From the sequence record MN850616.1: a stretch of 40,308 nucleotides of DNA, one strand, 5' to 3'. How positions within the stretch are numbered: position 1 is the stretch's first letter; each line of letters opens with the position of its first letter. Made by a program: the position numbers and the translations under genes. Positions 34,743-40,307 of this stretch are shown here, piece after piece. The DNA comes from Escherichia phage buks. The notes under the pieces are model-generated. The model searched no databases, was not told where the DNA came from, and worked only from the letters and a program-made list of their open reading frames with translations.

Positions 34743-36944
34743 ATGAATCTGCTTTATCTCGATACTGAAACATTCTCAGAAGCCGATTTGAAAAAAGTCG
34801 GTTCCTATGCCTATGCCGAACATCCGACTACCGAAATTGTTATCTGCACCTACGCTTTCGATGAAGGCCCTGTGCAAGTATGGGACGCCACCGACGGCAG
34901 CGATATGCCGCGTGATTTGCGTCGGGCGATGCTAAAGCTGCAAAAACCAGACAGCAATCTCAAACTGGTAGGCCAAAACTTCCTTATGTTCGACCGACCA
35001 GTTATTAAGCATTGCTGGGGATTCGAACTCCTGGTAGAAAACATTATAGACACTATGATAGTCGCGTTCCGACATGCCCTCCCGGGTTCACTGGCCGCGC
35101 TGTGTGAGGTTTTAAACATTGACGCAAGCATGGCTAAGGATAAACGCGGTAAGGCGCTGATACAGCGATTCAGTAAGCCTACGCCCAAGAACTATAAGAT
35201 TCGACGTTATACTGCCGATACCCACCCAAAAGAGTGGGCAGAATTTATTGCATACGCAAAAAGCGACATTACGTCCATGCGTGAAGTGTATAAGAAAATG
35301 CCTAAGTGGGGGAATTCTGAGTTCGAAGACCGCGTGCTGCACTTAGACCAGGTGATTAATGACCGAGGATTTAAGGTTGATGTGGCATTGGCGGAAGCAG
35401 CGATTGAAGCAGTCACGCGCCATAAAGAAGAGTTACAGGAAGAAGCCCAACGTAAATATGGCGGTTCACTAACCGGCAAAGACTTCTTGCCTATTTTACA
35501 GGAACTAGCACCGGCACACCGCATCCACAACGCACAGAAGTCGACGCTTAACGACTTGCTGGCAGATGAGGATTTACCGGACGATGCGCGCACTATTATC
35601 GAGATGCGTCTCGGGGCTGCTTCCACCGCATCGACGAAATACGCGCCGTTGCTGTTAGGTCGTTCTTCCGATGACCGCCGTCGAGGTTGTCTGCAATACG
35701 GCGGAGCGAAGCGAACACTGCGATGGGCCGGGAAAGGTTTTCAGCCTCAGAACCTGGCGCGCGGATATTATCACGACGATGAACTTGATAAGGGTATTTC
35801 CGCATTACTTAAAGGCCGTGCACACCGCCGTTTTGATGTGGCCAAGCTAACGGCATCCACTGTCCGCAGCTGTATAATCCCGGAAGACGGGTGTAAGTTT
35901 GTTGTTGCGGACTATTCCAACGTTGAAGGGCGAGGGCTTGCCTTCCTGTCCGGGGAAGAAACAGCTCTTGATACTTTCCGCGCGGGTCTTGATATATACT
36001 GCGTAACGGCAGGAAAGATGTTCGGCATGGATCCAGATGATATTAAGAAAAACTTTAAGGATATCAGACAGATAGGAAAAGCTTGCGAGCTTGGCCTCGG
36101 CTATGAGGGTGGCGTCGGAGCGTTCGTTACATTCGCCAAAAACTTAGGTCTTGACCTTATTGAGATGGCCAAAACAATGGCCGGAACTTTCCCCGACCAT
36201 ATCTGGGCCGCTACCGCTCGCGGGTATGAGTGGGCGCGTATACAGGAGGCAAAACGGCCGCCGCGTCCGGGGGAGAAGGATGACCGTCCATCGTATATTC
36301 TCGATAAGAAAGTATGGCGTACATGTGATGCTATTAAACGTATGTGGCGTGAATCGCACCCGCAAACCGTAGCTTTCTGGTGCGACCTTAAAGACGGTAT
36401 TCTTGCCGCAGTACGTAATCCTGGCCGCGATTTCTGGGCGGGCGCAAATATCCGAAGCAACGGTGAAAGAGCTATCCGTATCTGGAGAACAGTAGAAACT
36501 GATTCATCCGGTAGAAACATCCCAGGATGGTGGCTATGCATGGAGCTGCCGTCGGGGCGAATCCTATCATATCCAGGAATAGGCGTCAGCGTGACAAAGG
36601 AAACCGACGAAGACGGGCGGGTAAACACCAATGTAAGAATTAAGTACCAGGGCGAGAACCAGTTAACACGGCAGTGGACTACCCTGTACACACACGGCGG
36701 AAAGGCTTGTGAGAACATCGTTCAGGCGTTTTGTCGTGACTTATTGGCCTACGCAATGCTTAATGTTGAGGCTGGCGGGTACCCTATAGTTCTTTCGGTT
36801 CATGATGAACTGGTATGCGAGACCCCGGATACGCCAGATTACACGGTGGCGGAACTGGAAAAACTGATGTGTGCATTGCCAGAATGGGCTGAGGGTTTCC
36901 CTCTTGTAGCGGAAGGTGCGGAGTTAAAACGCTATGCTAAGTAA
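34743..36944 (+). CDS. DNA polymerase I (family A) with 3-prime-5-prime exonuclease domain
   Basis: 733 aa; exo motif LYLDTETFSE; polymerase motifs ADYSNVEGRGLAFLSGE (motif A), RQIGKACELGLGYEGG (motif B), SVHDELV (motif C). Confidence 0.9.
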   Translation: MNLLYLDTETFSEADLKKVGSYAYAEHPTTEIVICTYAFDEGPVQVWDATDGSDMPRDLRRAMLKLQKPDSNLKLVGQNFLMFDRPVIKHCWGFELLVENIIDTMIVAFRHALPGSLAALCEVLNIDASMAKDKRGKALIQRFSKPTPKNYKIRRYTADTHPKEWAEFIAYAKSDITSMREVYKKMPKWGNSEFEDRVLHLDQVINDRGFKVDVALAEAAIEAVTRHKEELQEEAQRKYGGSLTGKDFLPILQELAPAHRIHNAQKSTLNDLLADEDLPDDARTIIEMRLGAASTASTKYAPLLLGRSSDDRRRGCLQYGGAKRTLRWAGKGFQPQNLARGYYHDDELDKGISALLKGRAHRRFDVAKLTASTVRSCIIPEDGCKFVVADYSNVEGRGLAFLSGEETALDTFRAGLDIYCVTAGKMFGMDPDDIKKNFKDIRQIGKACELGLGYEGGVGAFVTFAKNLGLDLIEMAKTMAGTFPDHIWAATARGYEWARIQEAKRPPRPGEKDDRPSYILDKKVWRTCDAIKRMWRESHPQTVAFWCDLKDGILAAVRNPGRDFWAGANIRSNGERAIRIWRTVETDSSGRNIPGWWLCMELPSGRILSYPGIGVSVTKETDEDGRVNTNVRIKYQGENQLTRQWTTLYTHGGKACENIVQAFCRDLLAYAMLNVEAGGYPIVLSVHDELVCETPDTPDYTVAELEKLMCALPEWAEGFPLVAEGAELKRYAK

Positions 36945-37146
36945 ACTGATTATCGCGGTACTGGCAGGATTCGCAGCAGGTGTATACTGCCACCAGGGGC
37001 AATACGGCATGATGGTTGCCGTATTAGTGATGTTCGTTGCAATTTATCTGTGGGTGATGGGGTGAAAATTTACTGGTTCTATGAAGAAGACTGTCGAATC
37101 TGTCCGCGCTGCGGCATTAAGCACACGAAACGAGAGGGGTGCATAG

Positions 37147-37341
37147 ATGAGTAATAAACCATTTAGTAAGAAACTAGCCGCGTTAGTAGATATGCCGGAG
37201 TGGGAGTTTATTACGGTAATGGGTGACGGTTTCTTTAGTGATGCTTGCGCGGGGTGTACGCATAAAGGCGATTACTACTCCGAACACGATATCTATCAAG
37301 CGTACTTCCTGCGTAACCCAGATGCGGAGCCTTTGCTGTGA
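37147..37341 (+). CDS. Hypothetical protein (64 aa)
   Basis: ATG 37147 with GAGAGGGG RBS; Cys/His cluster CAGCTHKGDYY. Confidence 0.45.
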   Translation: MSNKPFSKKLAALVDMPEWEFITVMGDGFFSDACAGCTHKGDYYSEHDIYQAYFLRNPDAEPLL

Positions 37342-37622
37342 CTCCAGAAGGAAAGATTCAGAAATATGCAAAAGAGCGATTCGAGGCCGTTGGTGGCCTC
37401 GTTCGGAAACTGTCTTATGAAGGGCGCTCCGGCGCTCCTGACCTGCTGGTAATTCTCCCCGGCGGCATCATCTGGTTCGTCGAGGTGAAGAAAGACGAAA
37501 ACACGAAGCCTGACCCGCACCAGTTACGGGAGCATGAGCGGATGTGCAAACGCGGGGCAAATGTTTTTGTTGTCGGGTCTAAGAAACAGGTTGATAAATT
37601 AATAGAACACTATTATATTTAG
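37338..37622 (+). CDS. VRR-NUC domain nuclease
   Basis: 94 aa; GTG start overlapping upstream stop; ...GAPDLLVILPGGIIWFVEVKKDENTKPDPHQLREHERMCKRGANVFVV... matches the VRR-NUC pattern (D...E.K core). Confidence 0.7.
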   Translation: MTPEGKIQKYAKERFEAVGGLVRKLSYEGRSGAPDLLVILPGGIIWFVEVKKDENTKPDPHQLREHERMCKRGANVFVVGSKKQVDKLIEHYYI

Positions 37623-37653: not shown

Positions 37654-37845
37654 ATGAAATACGAATATGACCGCAAACCAGCACGTGACATCGTACCGGG
37701 TGACATGATTTTCAATGTTAAGACGCGTAGGCCTGTTGCCGTAGATACAGTATTTGTTGAGTCTAACGGTAAACTGGTTATTGAAGATGCAACCGGTAAC
37801 GTCACGGCGTTCGGGCGGAAGGAATTGGTTCTGGTGGCGAAATGA
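37654..37845 (+). CDS. Hypothetical protein (63 aa)
   Basis: ATG 37654 with AAGGAA RBS; stop overlaps helicase start (ATGA). Confidence 0.45.
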   Translation: MKYEYDRKPARDIVPGDMIFNVKTRRPVAVDTVFVESNGKLVIEDATGNVTAFGRKELVLVAK

Positions 37846-40307
37846 GTAAATTCACTAGAAGGCCTTATCAAAAGCTCATGACCTCGTTCATGCTGCGACA
37901 CCCGCGCTGTAATATCTGGGCAAGTATGGGAAGCGGCAAGTGCCTGAAACGCGGGACTGAAGTTATTATGTTTGACGGTACGACCAAGAAAGTAGAAGAC
38001 GTCATCGTCGGTGACGTGCTTATGGGGCCAGATTCAACGCCTAGAAATGTACTGTCTCTCGGTAGAGGCCGGGAGATGATGTACGAGGTTAAACCGCGAA
38101 AAGGCGAGTCATATACGGTAAACGAAAGCCATATATTATCACTGCGAACTACTACAGGTATCGCAAAAGGTTCATGGCCAGATAACACCGTTTTCGACAT
38201 AAGCGTCCGCGACTGGCTTAAGTTGCCGAAATATGTAACCGGGCCTAATGGGTATCTTAAGGGTTGGCGGGTACCTGTCGATTTTCCAAGGAAAGAGCAG
38301 GACGAGGCTTTATTGCCTCCGTACCTTATGGGGCTATGGCTGGGCGACGGTACTTCGTCGTCTGGGGCCATAACATCAGGAGAGAACGAAAAGGAAATAA
38401 GGGCGTATCTTGAGTCGTACGCAGCACGTAATGGGATGCAAATACGAAAAGAAGGACTTACATGGAGTATATCTCACGGCAACACAGGTCATAAGAAGCA
38501 CGGGTTTACACACGCGCTGAAATCGGCGGGTGTCCTGAACAATAAGCATATACCGCACAATTACAAATGCGGCGACCGGAGACAGCGTTTAGAGTTGCTG
38601 GCAGGGCTTCTGGATAGTGATGGTTACTGCGATTTGTCTAAAGCAGGTTTTGACTGGATTTCGGTAAGCGAGCGACTCGCTGATGATTTTTGCTATCTAT
38701 GCCGTTCTCTTGGTTTCGCAGCTTACAAGAAGAAAACTCGTAAGCGTTGCGCAAACACTGATGTTTGGGGGGATTACTTCCGCGTATCGGTATCAGGCGA
38801 TTTTTCTGATGTACCTTTCGTGCGTGGCCGCCACCAGAATTTACCGAAGCGTAATATTAATAAAAACGTACTTAACGTTGGAATAGAATCTATAACCCCG
38901 GTCGGCGTAGATGATTATTACGGCTTCACTATCGACGGTGACCACCGGTTTCTATTAGGCGACTTCACCGTAACGCACAACACAAGCTCGACAATGTGGG
39001 TGCTTAACCGGTTATTCCGTAATGGTCAGCTTAATGATGACGACCGGGTATTAATCCTCGCCCCGTTGCGTGTTGCGTCGGGTACGTGGCCCGCGGAACA
39101 AACTAAGTGGGGGTTCCCTTGCCTTCGTGTCATCGATGCAACCGGTTCGGAGAAGCGCCGCATAGCGGCGCTGGAGTCGGACGCTAATGTGGTGTGCACT
39201 AACTACGAAGTTATCGAGTGGCTGATTGATTACTACGGCAAAGACGACTGGCCTTTTACTGTTATCGTGGCCGATGAGAGCACGAAACTGAAATCTTTCC
39301 GTAGCCGTTCCGGCGGCAGCAAGAGAGCGAAGGCGCTTAGTAAAGTGGCGTTCGGCAAGGTTAAGCGTTTCATTAACCTGACCGGTACACCATCACCAAA
39401 CGGCCTCAAAGACTTGTGGGGTCAGAACTGGTTCATCGACGCGGGTGAACGCCTTGGGTCTTCATACACGGCCTTTACCGATAGATGGTTTAACTCGGTA
39501 CAGAAAGGCAAATCTGCGATGGCGCGGGAGTACCATGCTCGCCCAGGCGCGGATAACGAGATTCACCAGAAGATGAAGGATATCAGCCTTACCATTGATG
39601 CCGCCGAGTGGTTCGGTTGTGAAGCACCGGTTATTGTACCGGTTGAGATTGACCTGCCGAAGAAAGCGCGTCAAGCCTACATCGATATGGAGGAGAAGTT
39701 ATTCGCGGAACTGGAGAGCGGAGAAGTTGAAGCGGCTAACGCCGCCGCTAAAACGGCTAAGTGCTTGCAGATTGCTTCCGGTGCCGTGTATGTGTCGGGG
39801 CCGGATGGTGAAGCAACGAAAGACTGGGAGAAAGTGCACGACGCGAAACTCGATGCGTTAGAGTCCATTGTCGAGGAGTTGCAGGGTGCGCCGCTGCTGG
39901 TGGCCTATCAGTTCAAGCACGAACTTGAGCGCATTCTTAGGCGATTCCCCCAGGCGCAGGCGTTTGCGAAAGGTGCTAAGGGTAATAAGCAGATGGAATC
40001 TTGGAACCGCGGGGAAATCGAGATTTTGTGCGTGCACCCTGCATCGGCGGGCCATGGTTTGAATTTACAGGACGGCGGGCATCATCTGGCGTTTATTTCG
40101 CAAGGCTGGAACCTGGAGCACTATTTGCAGGTTGTCGAGCGTATAGGTCCTGTACGCCAGAAACAGGCTGGCCACGAGCGTCCAGTGTTCCTGTATCACA
40201 TAGTCGCTAAAGACACGCTGGATGAGGTCGTTGCCGCGCGTACGGACGAGAAAAAATCTGTCCAGGAAGAGTTGCTTAATTATATGAAGAGACGAGGTAA
40301 GAAATGA
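37842..40307 (+). CDS. SF2 (SNF2/DEAD-like) helicase interrupted by an in-frame intein; extein ~474 aa
   Basis: Continuous 821-aa ORF; Walker A GSGK is split from its Thr by a 347-aa insert; after the insert: TSSTMW...LILAPLRVASGTW...VIVADESTKLK...NLTGTPSPN... Confidence 0.85.
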   Translation: MSKFTRRPYQKLMTSFMLRHPRCNIWASMGSGKCLKRGTEVIMFDGTTKKVEDVIVGDVLMGPDSTPRNVLSLGRGREMMYEVKPRKGESYTVNESHILSLRTTTGIAKGSWPDNTVFDISVRDWLKLPKYVTGPNGYLKGWRVPVDFPRKEQDEALLPPYLMGLWLGDGTSSSGAITSGENEKEIRAYLESYAARNGMQIRKEGLTWSISHGNTGHKKHGFTHALKSAGVLNNKHIPHNYKCGDRRQRLELLAGLLDSDGYCDLSKAGFDWISVSERLADDFCYLCRSLGFAAYKKKTRKRCANTDVWGDYFRVSVSGDFSDVPFVRGRHQNLPKRNINKNVLNVGIESITPVGVDDYYGFTIDGDHRFLLGDFTVTHNTSSTMWVLNRLFRNGQLNDDDRVLILAPLRVASGTWPAEQTKWGFPCLRVIDATGSEKRRIAALESDANVVCTNYEVIEWLIDYYGKDDWPFTVIVADESTKLKSFRSRSGGSKRAKALSKVAFGKVKRFINLTGTPSPNGLKDLWGQNWFIDAGERLGSSYTAFTDRWFNSVQKGKSAMAREYHARPGADNEIHQKMKDISLTIDAAEWFGCEAPVIVPVEIDLPKKARQAYIDMEEKLFAELESGEVEAANAAAKTAKCLQIASGAVYVSGPDGEATKDWEKVHDAKLDALESIVEELQGAPLLVAYQFKHELERILRRFPQAQAFAKGAKGNKQMESWNRGEIEILCVHPASAGHGLNLQDGGHHLAFISQGWNLEHYLQVVERIGPVRQKQAGHERPVFLYHIVAKDTLDEVVAARTDEKKSVQEELLNYMKRRGKK
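37941..38981 (+). mobile_element. Intein with LAGLIDADG homing endonuclease domain, inserted in the helicase P-loop
   Basis: Starts with Cys codon TGC 37941-37943 right after GSGK; ends ...FTVTHN (Asn codon 38979-38981) followed by Thr; internal LAGLIDADG-like motifs LMGLWLGDGTSS and LLAGLLDSDGYC; 1041 nt, in frame. Confidence 0.8.

What the first reader, a model, noticed from the sequence alone, without database searches (positions are those of the whole stretch)
36934..37154. Two overlapping micro-ORFs after the polymerase gene: a 43-aa hydrophobic peptide and a 30-aa CxxC...C zinc-ribbon-like peptide
ATG 36934 (inside the polymerase 3-prime end, GGAG upstream) opens a 43-codon ORF encoding MLSKLIIAVLAGFAAGVYCHQGQYGMMVAVLVMFVAIYLWVMG. 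A GTG at 37062 opens a 30-codon ORF, KIYWFYEEDCRICPRCGIKHTKREGCIDE, with a CxxCxxC...C pattern. Both fall below the track cutoff and may be real small proteins or chance ORFs.
Basis: seen in the sequence. Interest (0 to 1): 0.25.

Follow-up and report, generated by a model that had tools for sequence, protein, structure and literature searches.

The report
Two real phage micro-genes after polymerase
Both tiny open reading frames after the DNA polymerase gene of this Salmonella phage are genuine conserved protein genes, a 43-residue two-helix membrane peptide that many relatives have lost and a 30-residue probable zinc-binding peptide that nearly all relatives keep, but both are already catalogued as hypothetical proteins and their function is unknown.

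Summary
The window is Salmonella phage blauehaus (Jerseyvirus).

As bare ORFs they are not above chance. Comparison with relatives shows that both code for protein:
- Both frames are intact in 43 of 43 distinct relatives, with fixed spacing.
- pN/pS is 0.23 for o43 and 0.075 for o30. Neighbouring genes give 0.07-0.18; every other forward frame gives more than 1.
- Most relatives have ATG where blauehaus has the o30 GTG.

o30 is a core gene, found in 444 Jerseyvirus and Kagunavirus records. C14, C17, H21 and C27 are nearly invariant while their codons vary. C11 is replaced in 6 of 53 loci, so this is one CPxCG knuckle, not a canonical zinc ribbon.

o43 is a two-helix hairpin found in only 223 records. 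It has been lost by precise deletion (which fuses its first seven codons in frame to o30), by start-codon loss and by truncation.

Neither peptide has a detectable relative outside this clade. Both match PHROG families of unknown function. o43 is annotated in the blauehaus record; o30 is not. Function is inferred only. Verdict: ordinary, real, low novelty.

The parts
34743..36944 (+). DNA polymerase I gene (context). Its last 11 nt overlap the start of o43.
   Evidence: 733-aa ORF, annotated blauehaus_53, DNA polymerase I.
36920..36923 (+). GGAG Shine-Dalgarno-like site, 10 nt upstream of the o43 ATG and inside the polymerase coding sequence.
   Evidence: Read from the sequence. Conserved as GGAG or AGAG in relatives. 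Where an HNH gene separates the polymerase gene from o43, o43 has its own GGAGG or AAGGAG.
36934..37065 (+). o43: 43-aa two-helix membrane hairpin peptide. An accessory gene, annotated as blauehaus_52.
   Evidence: phrog_10404, E 2.9e-28. Frame open in 43/43 distinct relatives. pN/pS 0.23. 124 synonymous against 78 non-synonymous changes on a tree, p 1.6e-24. Hydropathy profile. AlphaFold2 helices 2-20 and 22-42, pLDDT 82. Present in 223 phage records.
37051..37056 (+). TGGGTG, a weak Shine-Dalgarno-like element inside o43 codons W40-V41, 5 nt upstream of the o30 start.
   Evidence: Conserved as TGTGGGTG in all relatives shown. Its function as a ribosome-binding site is inferred.
37062..37154 (+). 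o30: 30-aa Cys/His microprotein. A core gene of Jerseyvirus and Kagunavirus that is not annotated in the blauehaus record. Its GTG start overlaps the o43 stop (GTGA).
   Evidence: phrog_38225, E 3.3e-23. ATG at the same position in most relatives. pN/pS 0.075. 105 synonymous against 31 non-synonymous changes, p 2e-41. Found in 444 phage records. Annotated in PQ002172 as XGU09011.1. An 81-nt unannotated gap covers it in MT074473.
37092..37142 (+). Putative metal-binding core of o30: C11 (37092-94), C14 (37101-03), C17 (37110-12), H21 (37122-24), C27 (37140-42).
   Evidence: C14 53/53, C17 52/53, H21 51/53, C27 53/53 and C11 47/53, with TGC/TGT and CAC/CAT alternating among loci. AlphaFold2 predicts a beta-hairpin 11-13/20-22 with local pLDDT about 79. 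Zinc binding itself was not tested.
37147..37341 (+). o64: the next small gene (64 aa). Its ATG overlaps the o30 stop (ATGAGTAA). It is a variable cassette, present in only some of the relatives.
   Evidence: phrog_25645, E 7.8e-38. Annotated blauehaus_51. pN/pS 0.066. Present in 11 of the 53 loci that carry o30.
37338..37622 (+). VRR-NUC nuclease (Holliday-junction-resolvase-like) gene. This is the downstream anchor of the variable region. Its GTG start overlaps the o64 stop (GTGA).
   Evidence: phrog_93 and phrog_5702. Annotated blauehaus_50.

Best explanation
Both ORFs are real, translated protein-coding genes in the phage's rightward replication and recombination operon. They are linked to their neighbours by start/stop overlaps: polymerase-o43 by 11 nt, o43-o30 by GTGA, o30-o64 by ATGAGTAA, and o64-VRR-NUC by GTGA. 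Ribosomes finishing one gene would therefore start the next (inferred translational coupling).

o43 is a 43-aa inner-membrane helical hairpin. TM1 (about residues 5-18) carries a G12xxxG16 motif. The loop is a conserved Y-C-H-E-G-Q-Y-G. TM2 spans about 26-42. It is an accessory gene: selected on its amino-acid sequence where present, universal in the E. coli-infecting Kagunavirus relatives, and repeatedly lost in Salmonella Jerseyviruses.

o30 is a 29-36-aa microprotein built around a single CPRCG knuckle. It most likely holds one zinc ion through C14, C17, H21 and C27, with C11 as an auxiliary or alternative ligand. It is a core gene of Jerseyvirus and Kagunavirus.

Shown: coding status, selection, presence and absence, residue conservation and predicted secondary structure.

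Inferred: zinc binding and function. My best guess is that o30 is a zinc-stabilised binding module. Its aromatic N-terminus (IYWFY) and basic residues (R12, R16, K23, R24) would dock on DNA or on a replication or recombination protein, or on a host target. My best guess for o43 is a host-specific membrane accessory factor.
For: - Identity: 100% match to Salmonella phage blauehaus. o43 is annotated there and o30 lies in an unannotated 81-nt gap.
- PHROG matches over the full length.
- In the 46 loci that carry both ORFs the spacing is fixed at 128 nt, although their polymerase segments are 67-100% identical to the query. Both frames are open in 43/43 distinct sequences, and no other frame is open in all 43.
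- pN/pS is 0.23 for o43 and 0.075 for o30. Neighbours give 0.17 (polymerase C-terminus), 0.18 (VRR-NUC) and 0.08 (o63). The other forward frames give 1.1-2.7.
- Tree-based counts show a synonymous excess only in the claimed frames, p 1.6e-24 and 2e-41.
- The o30 start is ATG in most relatives, forming an ATGA overlap with the o43 stop.
- Seven IMG/VR loci carry a natural deletion between two TGATTATC repeats. It removes the body of o43 and joins MLSKLII in frame to YYFREEDC..., so o30 is kept and gains the o43 start. The same junction is widespread in Salmonella phages such as SE2 and Ent1.
- o43 has its own GGAGG or AAGGAG site where an HNH gene separates it from the polymerase gene.
- o30 occurs in 444 phage records and o43 in 223.
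- Cys and His codons vary synonymously while the residues stay fixed.
- AlphaFold2 gives o43 two helices at pLDDT 82 and o30 a hairpin around the knuckle.
Against: - There is no direct evidence of translation or of zinc binding, and I found no experimental paper.
- The blauehaus o30 starts with GTG and has only a weak Shine-Dalgarno-like element.
- o30 has no significant similarity to any zinc-finger family. Its AlphaFold2 model is only moderately confident (pLDDT 65.5).
- More distant relatives join the polymerase gene directly to VRR-NUC with neither ORF present. So o30 is not a general requirement of this replication module.
- o43 is dispensable. It is deleted in about half of the records, has an ACG start in SETP3, has an 18-nt deletion plus a premature TAG in ER4-type phages, and shows a few frameshifted copies in metagenome assemblies.
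- Recombination among these phages inflates the parsimony counts.
Confidence: 0.85

Rival explanations
1. Only o30 matters. o43 would act as a leader ORF whose translation, not its peptide, delivers ribosomes to the weakly initiating o30 start. Alternatively, the blauehaus copy is a decaying relic.
For: o43 is absent from about half of the records while o30 is kept. The o30 start lacks a strong Shine-Dalgarno site and overlaps the o43 stop. o43 decays in several lineages. In the deletion variants o30 simply takes over the o43 start.
Against: A pure leader ORF would not be constrained on its amino-acid sequence. o43 has pN/pS 0.23 and 61% synonymous changes against 27% expected. Its length is fixed at 43 codons. 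Its loop (Y18, H20, Y24) and the G12 and G16 positions are near-invariant across 97 distinct sequences. It keeps its own strong ribosome-binding site when moved away from the polymerase gene.
Confidence: 0.1
2. Both are chance ORFs in a non-coding spacer or regulatory region (promoter, terminator or structured RNA) between the polymerase and nuclease genes.
For: ORFs of 30-43 codons are common by chance. o30 is unannotated in this phage's GenBank record. One weak promoter-like match lies at 36961-36988.
Against: Third-position-biased substitution occurs only in the claimed frames. The frames are open in all relatives. Start codons are conserved. The natural deletion preserves the frame. There is no Rfam match and no terminator, and promoter-like sites occur at the shuffled-sequence rate.
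Confidence: 0.02
3. o30 is a C-terminal extension of the polymerase, made by stop-codon readthrough. o30 is in the polymerase frame, and that frame is open from the polymerase TAA to the o30 stop in blauehaus (70 codons).
For: Polymerase start 34743 and o30 start 37062 are in the same frame. There is no stop between 36945 and 37154.
Against: Across the o43 region that frame has pN/pS well above 1 (frames +1 and +2 give 1.1 and 2.7). SETP3 and ER4 have stops in it. In the o43-deleted phages o30 sits in a different frame from the polymerase.
Confidence: 0.02
4. o30 is a canonical two-knuckle zinc ribbon, with C11/C14 and C17/C27 as paired ligands.
For: The CxxCxxC...C pattern is present. CPRCG is the typical zinc-ribbon knuckle, and the sub-threshold PDB and Foldseek hits are mostly zinc modules.
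Against: C11 is Arg or Phe in 6 of 53 loci, whereas H21 is kept in 51 of 53. There is no second CxxC knuckle. No zinc-ribbon HMM or fold match is significant.
Confidence: 0.15

Closest known systems
PHROG families phrog_10404 (o43) and phrog_38225 (o30), and GenBank hypothetical proteins such as QIO02589.1 (blauehaus_52) and XGU09011.1
   Same: Full-length, highly significant profile matches. Same position after the polymerase gene in Jerseyvirus and Kagunavirus genomes.
   Different: These are catalogue entries of unknown function. phrog_38225 models the 36-aa fused form (MLSKLII + o30), whereas blauehaus has the separate 30-aa form.
Zinc-finger micro-proteins with C(P)XCG motifs, e.g. Haloferax volcanii HVO_0758 (PMC10716476, abstract only)
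   Same: Very small proteins whose fold is expected to depend on one zinc ion held by CPxCG-type knuckles.
   Different: According to the abstract shown, the archaeal proteins have two C(P)XCG motifs and are under 70 aa. o30 has a single CPRCG plus His21 and Cys27, is half the size, and shows no sequence relationship.
Retroviral-type CCHC zinc knuckle (CX2CX4HX4C; spacing recalled from general knowledge)
   Same: The same ligand types in the same order over the same 14-residue span, with neighbouring aromatic and basic residues.
   Different: The spacing in o30 is CX2CX3HX5C. The Pfam scan returned no zf-CCHC hit at E up to 1. This is a resemblance only, not membership.
Small two-helix phage membrane proteins (class II holins, superinfection-immunity proteins such as blauehaus_38)
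   Same: Size, two hydrophobic helices, phage origin. Foldseek places o43 next to other uncharacterised phage membrane hairpins, TM-score up to 0.8 but E at least 0.7.
   Different: The holin profile match is not significant (phrog_1527, E 0.18). o43 lies in the replication operon, far from the lysis genes. It has no similarity to blauehaus_38 or to the 50-aa membrane ORF found beside o30 in relatives.

Membership tests
phrog_10404 (o43) | Significant full-length match to the family profile | tested here: met
   E 2.9e-28, residues 1-42 on profile positions 1-42 of 43.
phrog_38225 (o30) | Significant match to the family profile | tested here: met
   E 3.3e-23, residues 1-30 on profile positions 5-34 of 36. 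The four extra N-terminal profile positions correspond to the fused MLSKLII form.
Zinc ribbon (two-knuckle rubredoxin-like) | Two CxxC-type knuckles supplying four conserved Cys ligands | tested here: not met
   Only one CPRCG knuckle. C11 is replaced in 6 of 53 loci. The last ligand is a lone C27.
Zinc ribbon (two-knuckle rubredoxin-like) | Match to a curated zinc-ribbon model or solved structure | tested here: not met
   Best Pfam hit for o30 is ZNF598 C2H2, E 0.23. PDB profile E at least 0.32, covering the CPRCG hexapeptide only. Foldseek E at least 3.6.
Zinc ribbon (two-knuckle rubredoxin-like) | Binds one zinc ion | not testable with these tools
   Needs metal analysis of the peptide.
CCHC zinc knuckle (zf-CCHC) | CX2CX4HX4C spacing and a match to the Pfam model | tested here: not met
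   Spacing is CX2CX3HX5C. The Pfam scan returned no zf-CCHC hit at E up to 1.
Holin | Similarity to a holin family and location in the lysis cassette | tested here: not met
   phrog_1527 E 0.18. The annotated holins and lysozyme are blauehaus_5-7, about 30 kb away in the record.
Small integral membrane protein (generic two-TM hairpin) | Two hydrophobic helices long enough to span a membrane, separated by a short polar loop | tested here: met
   Hydropathy peaks at residues 5-18 and 26-42 with a polar stretch at 18-25. AlphaFold2 helices 2-20 and 22-42. Actual membrane insertion was not tested.

The most novel reading that the evidence does not exclude
o43 and o30 work as a pair: the membrane hairpin tethers a zinc-knuckle microprotein at the inner membrane.

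This would explain four things. They are always adjacent and translationally coupled. Every o43 decay event lies in the clade whose o30 N-terminus has changed from KIYW(F/L)Y to IIYYF(R/H). The common o43 deletion leaves its hydrophobic MLSKLII start fused to o30.

In this reading o30, one of the smallest conserved phage proteins at 29 aa, would be a core, clade-specific factor acting on the replisome or on a host defence or takeover target.
Probability: 0.1. Interest if true: 0.5.

Novelty: already known. Interest (0 to 1): 0.2.

Why it matters
The practical result is an annotation fix. The blauehaus record, and many related records, miss a 30-codon gene that is conserved in nearly all Jerseyvirus and Kagunavirus genomes.

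More broadly, the locus is a clean natural example of how very small phage genes can be validated by comparative genomics alone. It offers a core 29-36-aa Cys/His microprotein of unknown function and a dispensable membrane peptide, with a ready-made series of natural knock-outs. Jerseyviruses are widely used as Salmonella biocontrol and therapy phages, so unexplained conserved genes in them are worth knowing about. Nothing here overturns expectations.

Tried and rejected
- A profile search of 1.84 billion representatives with o30 found only its own family, plus two proteins that match the CPxCG knuckle alone.
- The PDB sequence profile, Foldseek against PDB for o30 and Foldseek against BFVD for o43 gave nothing significant.
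- Pfam, NCBIfam and PADLOC gave no family.
- There is no Rfam family and no terminator, and promoter-like matches are not enriched. A structured-RNA or regulatory reading was dropped.
- Polymerase readthrough into o30 was considered because the frame is shared and open. It was rejected on pN/pS above 1 and on stops in relatives.
- An antisense gene was considered. The antisense frame that shares wobble positions also shows low pN/pS, as expected. It is not open in all sequences and has no start or operon support.
- BLASTP found no similarity between o30 and o64, or between o43 and either the annotated superinfection-immunity protein or the 50-aa membrane ORF of relatives.
- Three literature searches found no experimental work on these ORFs.
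- The junction blastn could not count fused against unfused records, because split matches are merged.
Full report
**What the window is.** The region is 100% identical to Salmonella phage blauehaus (MT074473 / NC_073173; Jerseyvirus, Guernseyvirinae). The finding lies in the replication and recombination operon on the + strand of the window. The gene order is helicase-primase, PD-(D/E)XK nuclease, a 208-aa protein, DNA polymerase I (34743-36944), small ORFs, VRR-NUC nuclease (37338-37622), a 63-aa ORF, then an SNF2 helicase.

**Checking the observation.**
- ATG 36934 opens a 43-codon ORF (o43, to 37065). It lies 11 nt inside the polymerase 3' end, with GGAG 10 nt upstream.
- GTG 37062 opens a 30-codon ORF (o30, to 37154). 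It overlaps the o43 stop as GTGA.
- Such ORFs are common by chance: 93 ORFs of at least 20 codons lie in the surrounding 6.3 kb. The sequence alone decides nothing.
- In GenBank, o43 is already annotated (blauehaus_52, hypothetical). o30 falls in an unannotated 81-nt gap.
- The o30 orthologue is annotated in some relatives, for example XGU09011.1 in PQ002172.
- Both match PHROG families of unknown function: phrog_10404 at E 2.9e-28 and phrog_38225 at E 3.3e-23.

**Comparative test.**
- I fetched 72 IMG/VR loci using the polymerase C-terminus. Their identity to the query in that segment ranges from 100% down to 60%. I mapped the small ORFs onto them with tblastn.
- 46 loci carry both ORFs, always 128 nt apart. 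In all 43 distinct sequences both claimed frames are open, and no other frame is open in all 43.
- Pairwise pN/pS is 0.23 for o43 and 0.075 for o30.
- The same loci give 0.17 for the polymerase C-terminus, 0.18 for VRR-NUC, 0.17 for the helicase N-terminus and 0.08 for the 63-aa ORF. The other two forward frames give 1.1-2.7.
- On a neighbour-joining tree, o43 has 124 synonymous and 78 non-synonymous changes (27% synonymous expected, p 1.6e-24). o30 has 105 and 31 (23% expected, p 2e-41). In o30, 113 of 136 changes are at third positions. Recombination inflates these counts, but the contrast between frames is unambiguous.
- In most relatives the o30 start is ATG at exactly the position of the blauehaus GTG, giving an ATGA overlap with the o43 stop.
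- In two loci an HNH endonuclease gene separates the polymerase gene from o43. There o43 keeps its ATG and has its own GGAGG or AAGGAG site.

**A natural deletion series.**
- Seven loci lack the body of o43. The sequence reads ATG CTA AGT AAA CTG ATT ATC | TAT TAT TTC, which is MLSKLII joined in frame to YYFREEDCRICPRCG.
- The junction is an 8-nt direct repeat, TGATTATC. In SETP3-like phages it is present at both the start of o43 and the start of o30. This points to a microhomology deletion that kept o30 intact and gave it the o43 start and ribosome-binding site.
- This fused 33-36-aa form is what phrog_38225 models. It is widespread in Salmonella phages such as SE2 and Ent1.
- Other hits to o43:
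  - ACG replaces the ATG in SETP3.
  - ER4-type phages have an 18-nt in-frame deletion in the first helix plus a premature TAG.
  - A few metagenome assemblies have frameshifts running into the o30 frame.
- Across 50,697 phage records, o30 is found in 444 (442 near full length) and o43 in 223. Among records named Escherichia phage, 102 carry each ORF. Among Salmonella phage records, 324 carry o30 and 106 carry o43.
- So o30 is a core gene of Jerseyvirus and Kagunavirus, and o43 is an accessory gene.
- More distant relatives (polymerase segment about 60-65% identical) have neither. They either join the polymerase gene directly to VRR-NUC or carry other cargo there: SprT-like, HNH, methylase or a 63-aa ORF.

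**What the peptides look like: o43.**
- It has two hydrophobic stretches (about 5-18 and 26-42) around a polar loop. Y18, H20, Y24, G12 and G16 are near-invariant across 97 distinct sequences, and substitutions elsewhere are mostly hydrophobic-for-hydrophobic.
- AlphaFold2 predicts helices 2-20 and 22-42, mean pLDDT 82.
- Foldseek finds only other uncharacterised phage membrane hairpins, none significant.
- It is not similar to a holin (E 0.18), to the phage's annotated superinfection-immunity protein, or to the 50-aa membrane ORF of relatives.

**What the peptides look like: o30.**
- Seventeen positions are invariant in an alignment of 18 variants.
- Across 53 loci, C14 (53/53), C17 (52/53), H21 (51/53) and C27 (53/53) are kept while their codons alternate between TGC/TGT and CAC/CAT. 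C11 is Arg in five loci and Phe in one.
- This is therefore a single CPRCG knuckle with His21 and Cys27 (CX2CX3HX5C), with C11 as a spare. It is not a two-knuckle zinc ribbon.
- AlphaFold2 gives a hairpin 11-13/20-22 around the knuckle at modest confidence (mean pLDDT 65.5).
- No family or structure matches: Pfam best E 0.23, PDB profile E at least 0.32 on the CPRCG hexapeptide only, Foldseek E at least 3.6.
- A full HMMER scan of 1.84 billion representatives returns only the family itself, plus two knuckle-repeat proteins. NCBIfam and PADLOC give nothing.

**Rivals.**
- A regulatory or structured-RNA reading has no support: no Rfam hit, no terminator, and promoter-like sites at the shuffled rate.
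- Readthrough of the polymerase stop into o30 is formally possible in blauehaus. The frame is the same and is open for 70 codons. However, that frame shows pN/pS above 1 across o43, has stops in SETP3 and ER4, and differs from the o30 frame in the deletion variants.
- A leader-ORF role for o43 (translation matters, peptide does not) is the only serious rival. It is weakened by the amino-acid-level constraint on o43.

**How it most likely works.**
- Shown: both are protein-coding and under purifying selection. o30 is core and o43 is dispensable. o43 has a helical-hairpin architecture. o30 has a conserved Cys/His set.
- Inferred:
  - Expression is by translational coupling along the overlap chain.
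  - o30 folds around one zinc ion. It acts as a small binding module, using aromatic IYWFY and basic R12, R16, K23 and R24, on DNA, a replication or recombination protein, or a host target.
  - o43 inserts in the inner membrane as a host-linked accessory factor.
- I found no experimental literature on either ORF.

**An unresolved hint.** Every o43 decay event lies in the clade whose o30 N-terminus is IIYYF(R/H) instead of KIYW(F/L)Y. Seven of those 11 loci lack o43, against none of 42 in the other clade. This could be plain linkage or a functional pairing.

**Verdict.** The zinc-ribbon label needs softening to a single Cys/His knuckle. Both genes are already catalogued as hypothetical families, so novelty is low. 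The useful outputs are a missed-gene annotation for o30 and a natural knock-out series for o43.

Noticed in passing
window 37842-40307: The SNF2 helicase gene carries an intein inserted just after the GSGK of its Walker A motif: a Hint domain at residues 34-108 and a LAGLIDADG domain at 248-305, with the SNF2 domain resuming from about residue 387. In relatives the distance between the 63-aa ORF and the helicase start varies by 0.5-1.2 kb, which suggests further homing-endonuclease insertions there.
   Followed up: partly
window 37147-37341 and loci L004-L051 between o30 and VRR-NUC: The polymerase-to-VRR-NUC junction is a hotspot of tiny swappable cassettes joined by ATGA or GTGA overlaps. 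They include o64 (phrog_25645, pN/pS 0.066, in 11 of 53 loci) and a 50-aa two-helix membrane ORF MTMFVFW... (22 loci). There are also 23-25-aa single-helix ORFs (L013, L020, L047) and an HNH gene (SETP3 and SETP7). The C-terminal tail of o30 (VL, VDEYA, IDE, NR) changes with whatever follows it.
   Followed up: partly
L015 2603-3117 and L048 2582-3345: HNH homing-endonuclease genes (171 and 235 aa) are inserted between the polymerase stop and o43 in two relatives. The o43-o30 pair stays together downstream of them.
   Followed up: partly
window 36945-37154: o30 is in the same reading frame as the polymerase, and that frame has no stop from the polymerase TAA to the o30 stop (70 codons). This explains why a few metagenome gene calls show o43 N-terminus/o30 fusion proteins after a single frameshift. 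There is no evidence that the open frame is selected.
   Followed up: yes
loci L004-L032 (o30 N-terminus): All o43 loss or decay events (deletion, ACG start, C19R, a very divergent copy) occur in phages whose o30 begins (M/L)IIYYF(R/H) or MTIYYFR rather than MKIYW(F/L)Y. This may be linkage or co-evolution of the two peptides.
   Followed up: partly
L052-L075, polymerase/VRR-NUC junction: More distant relatives carry a 110-132-aa protein with an HExxH motif (it looks like a SprT-type metalloprotease by eye), a DNA methylase-like ORF, or an HNH ORF at the position held by o43 and o30. Others have nothing there.
   Followed up: no
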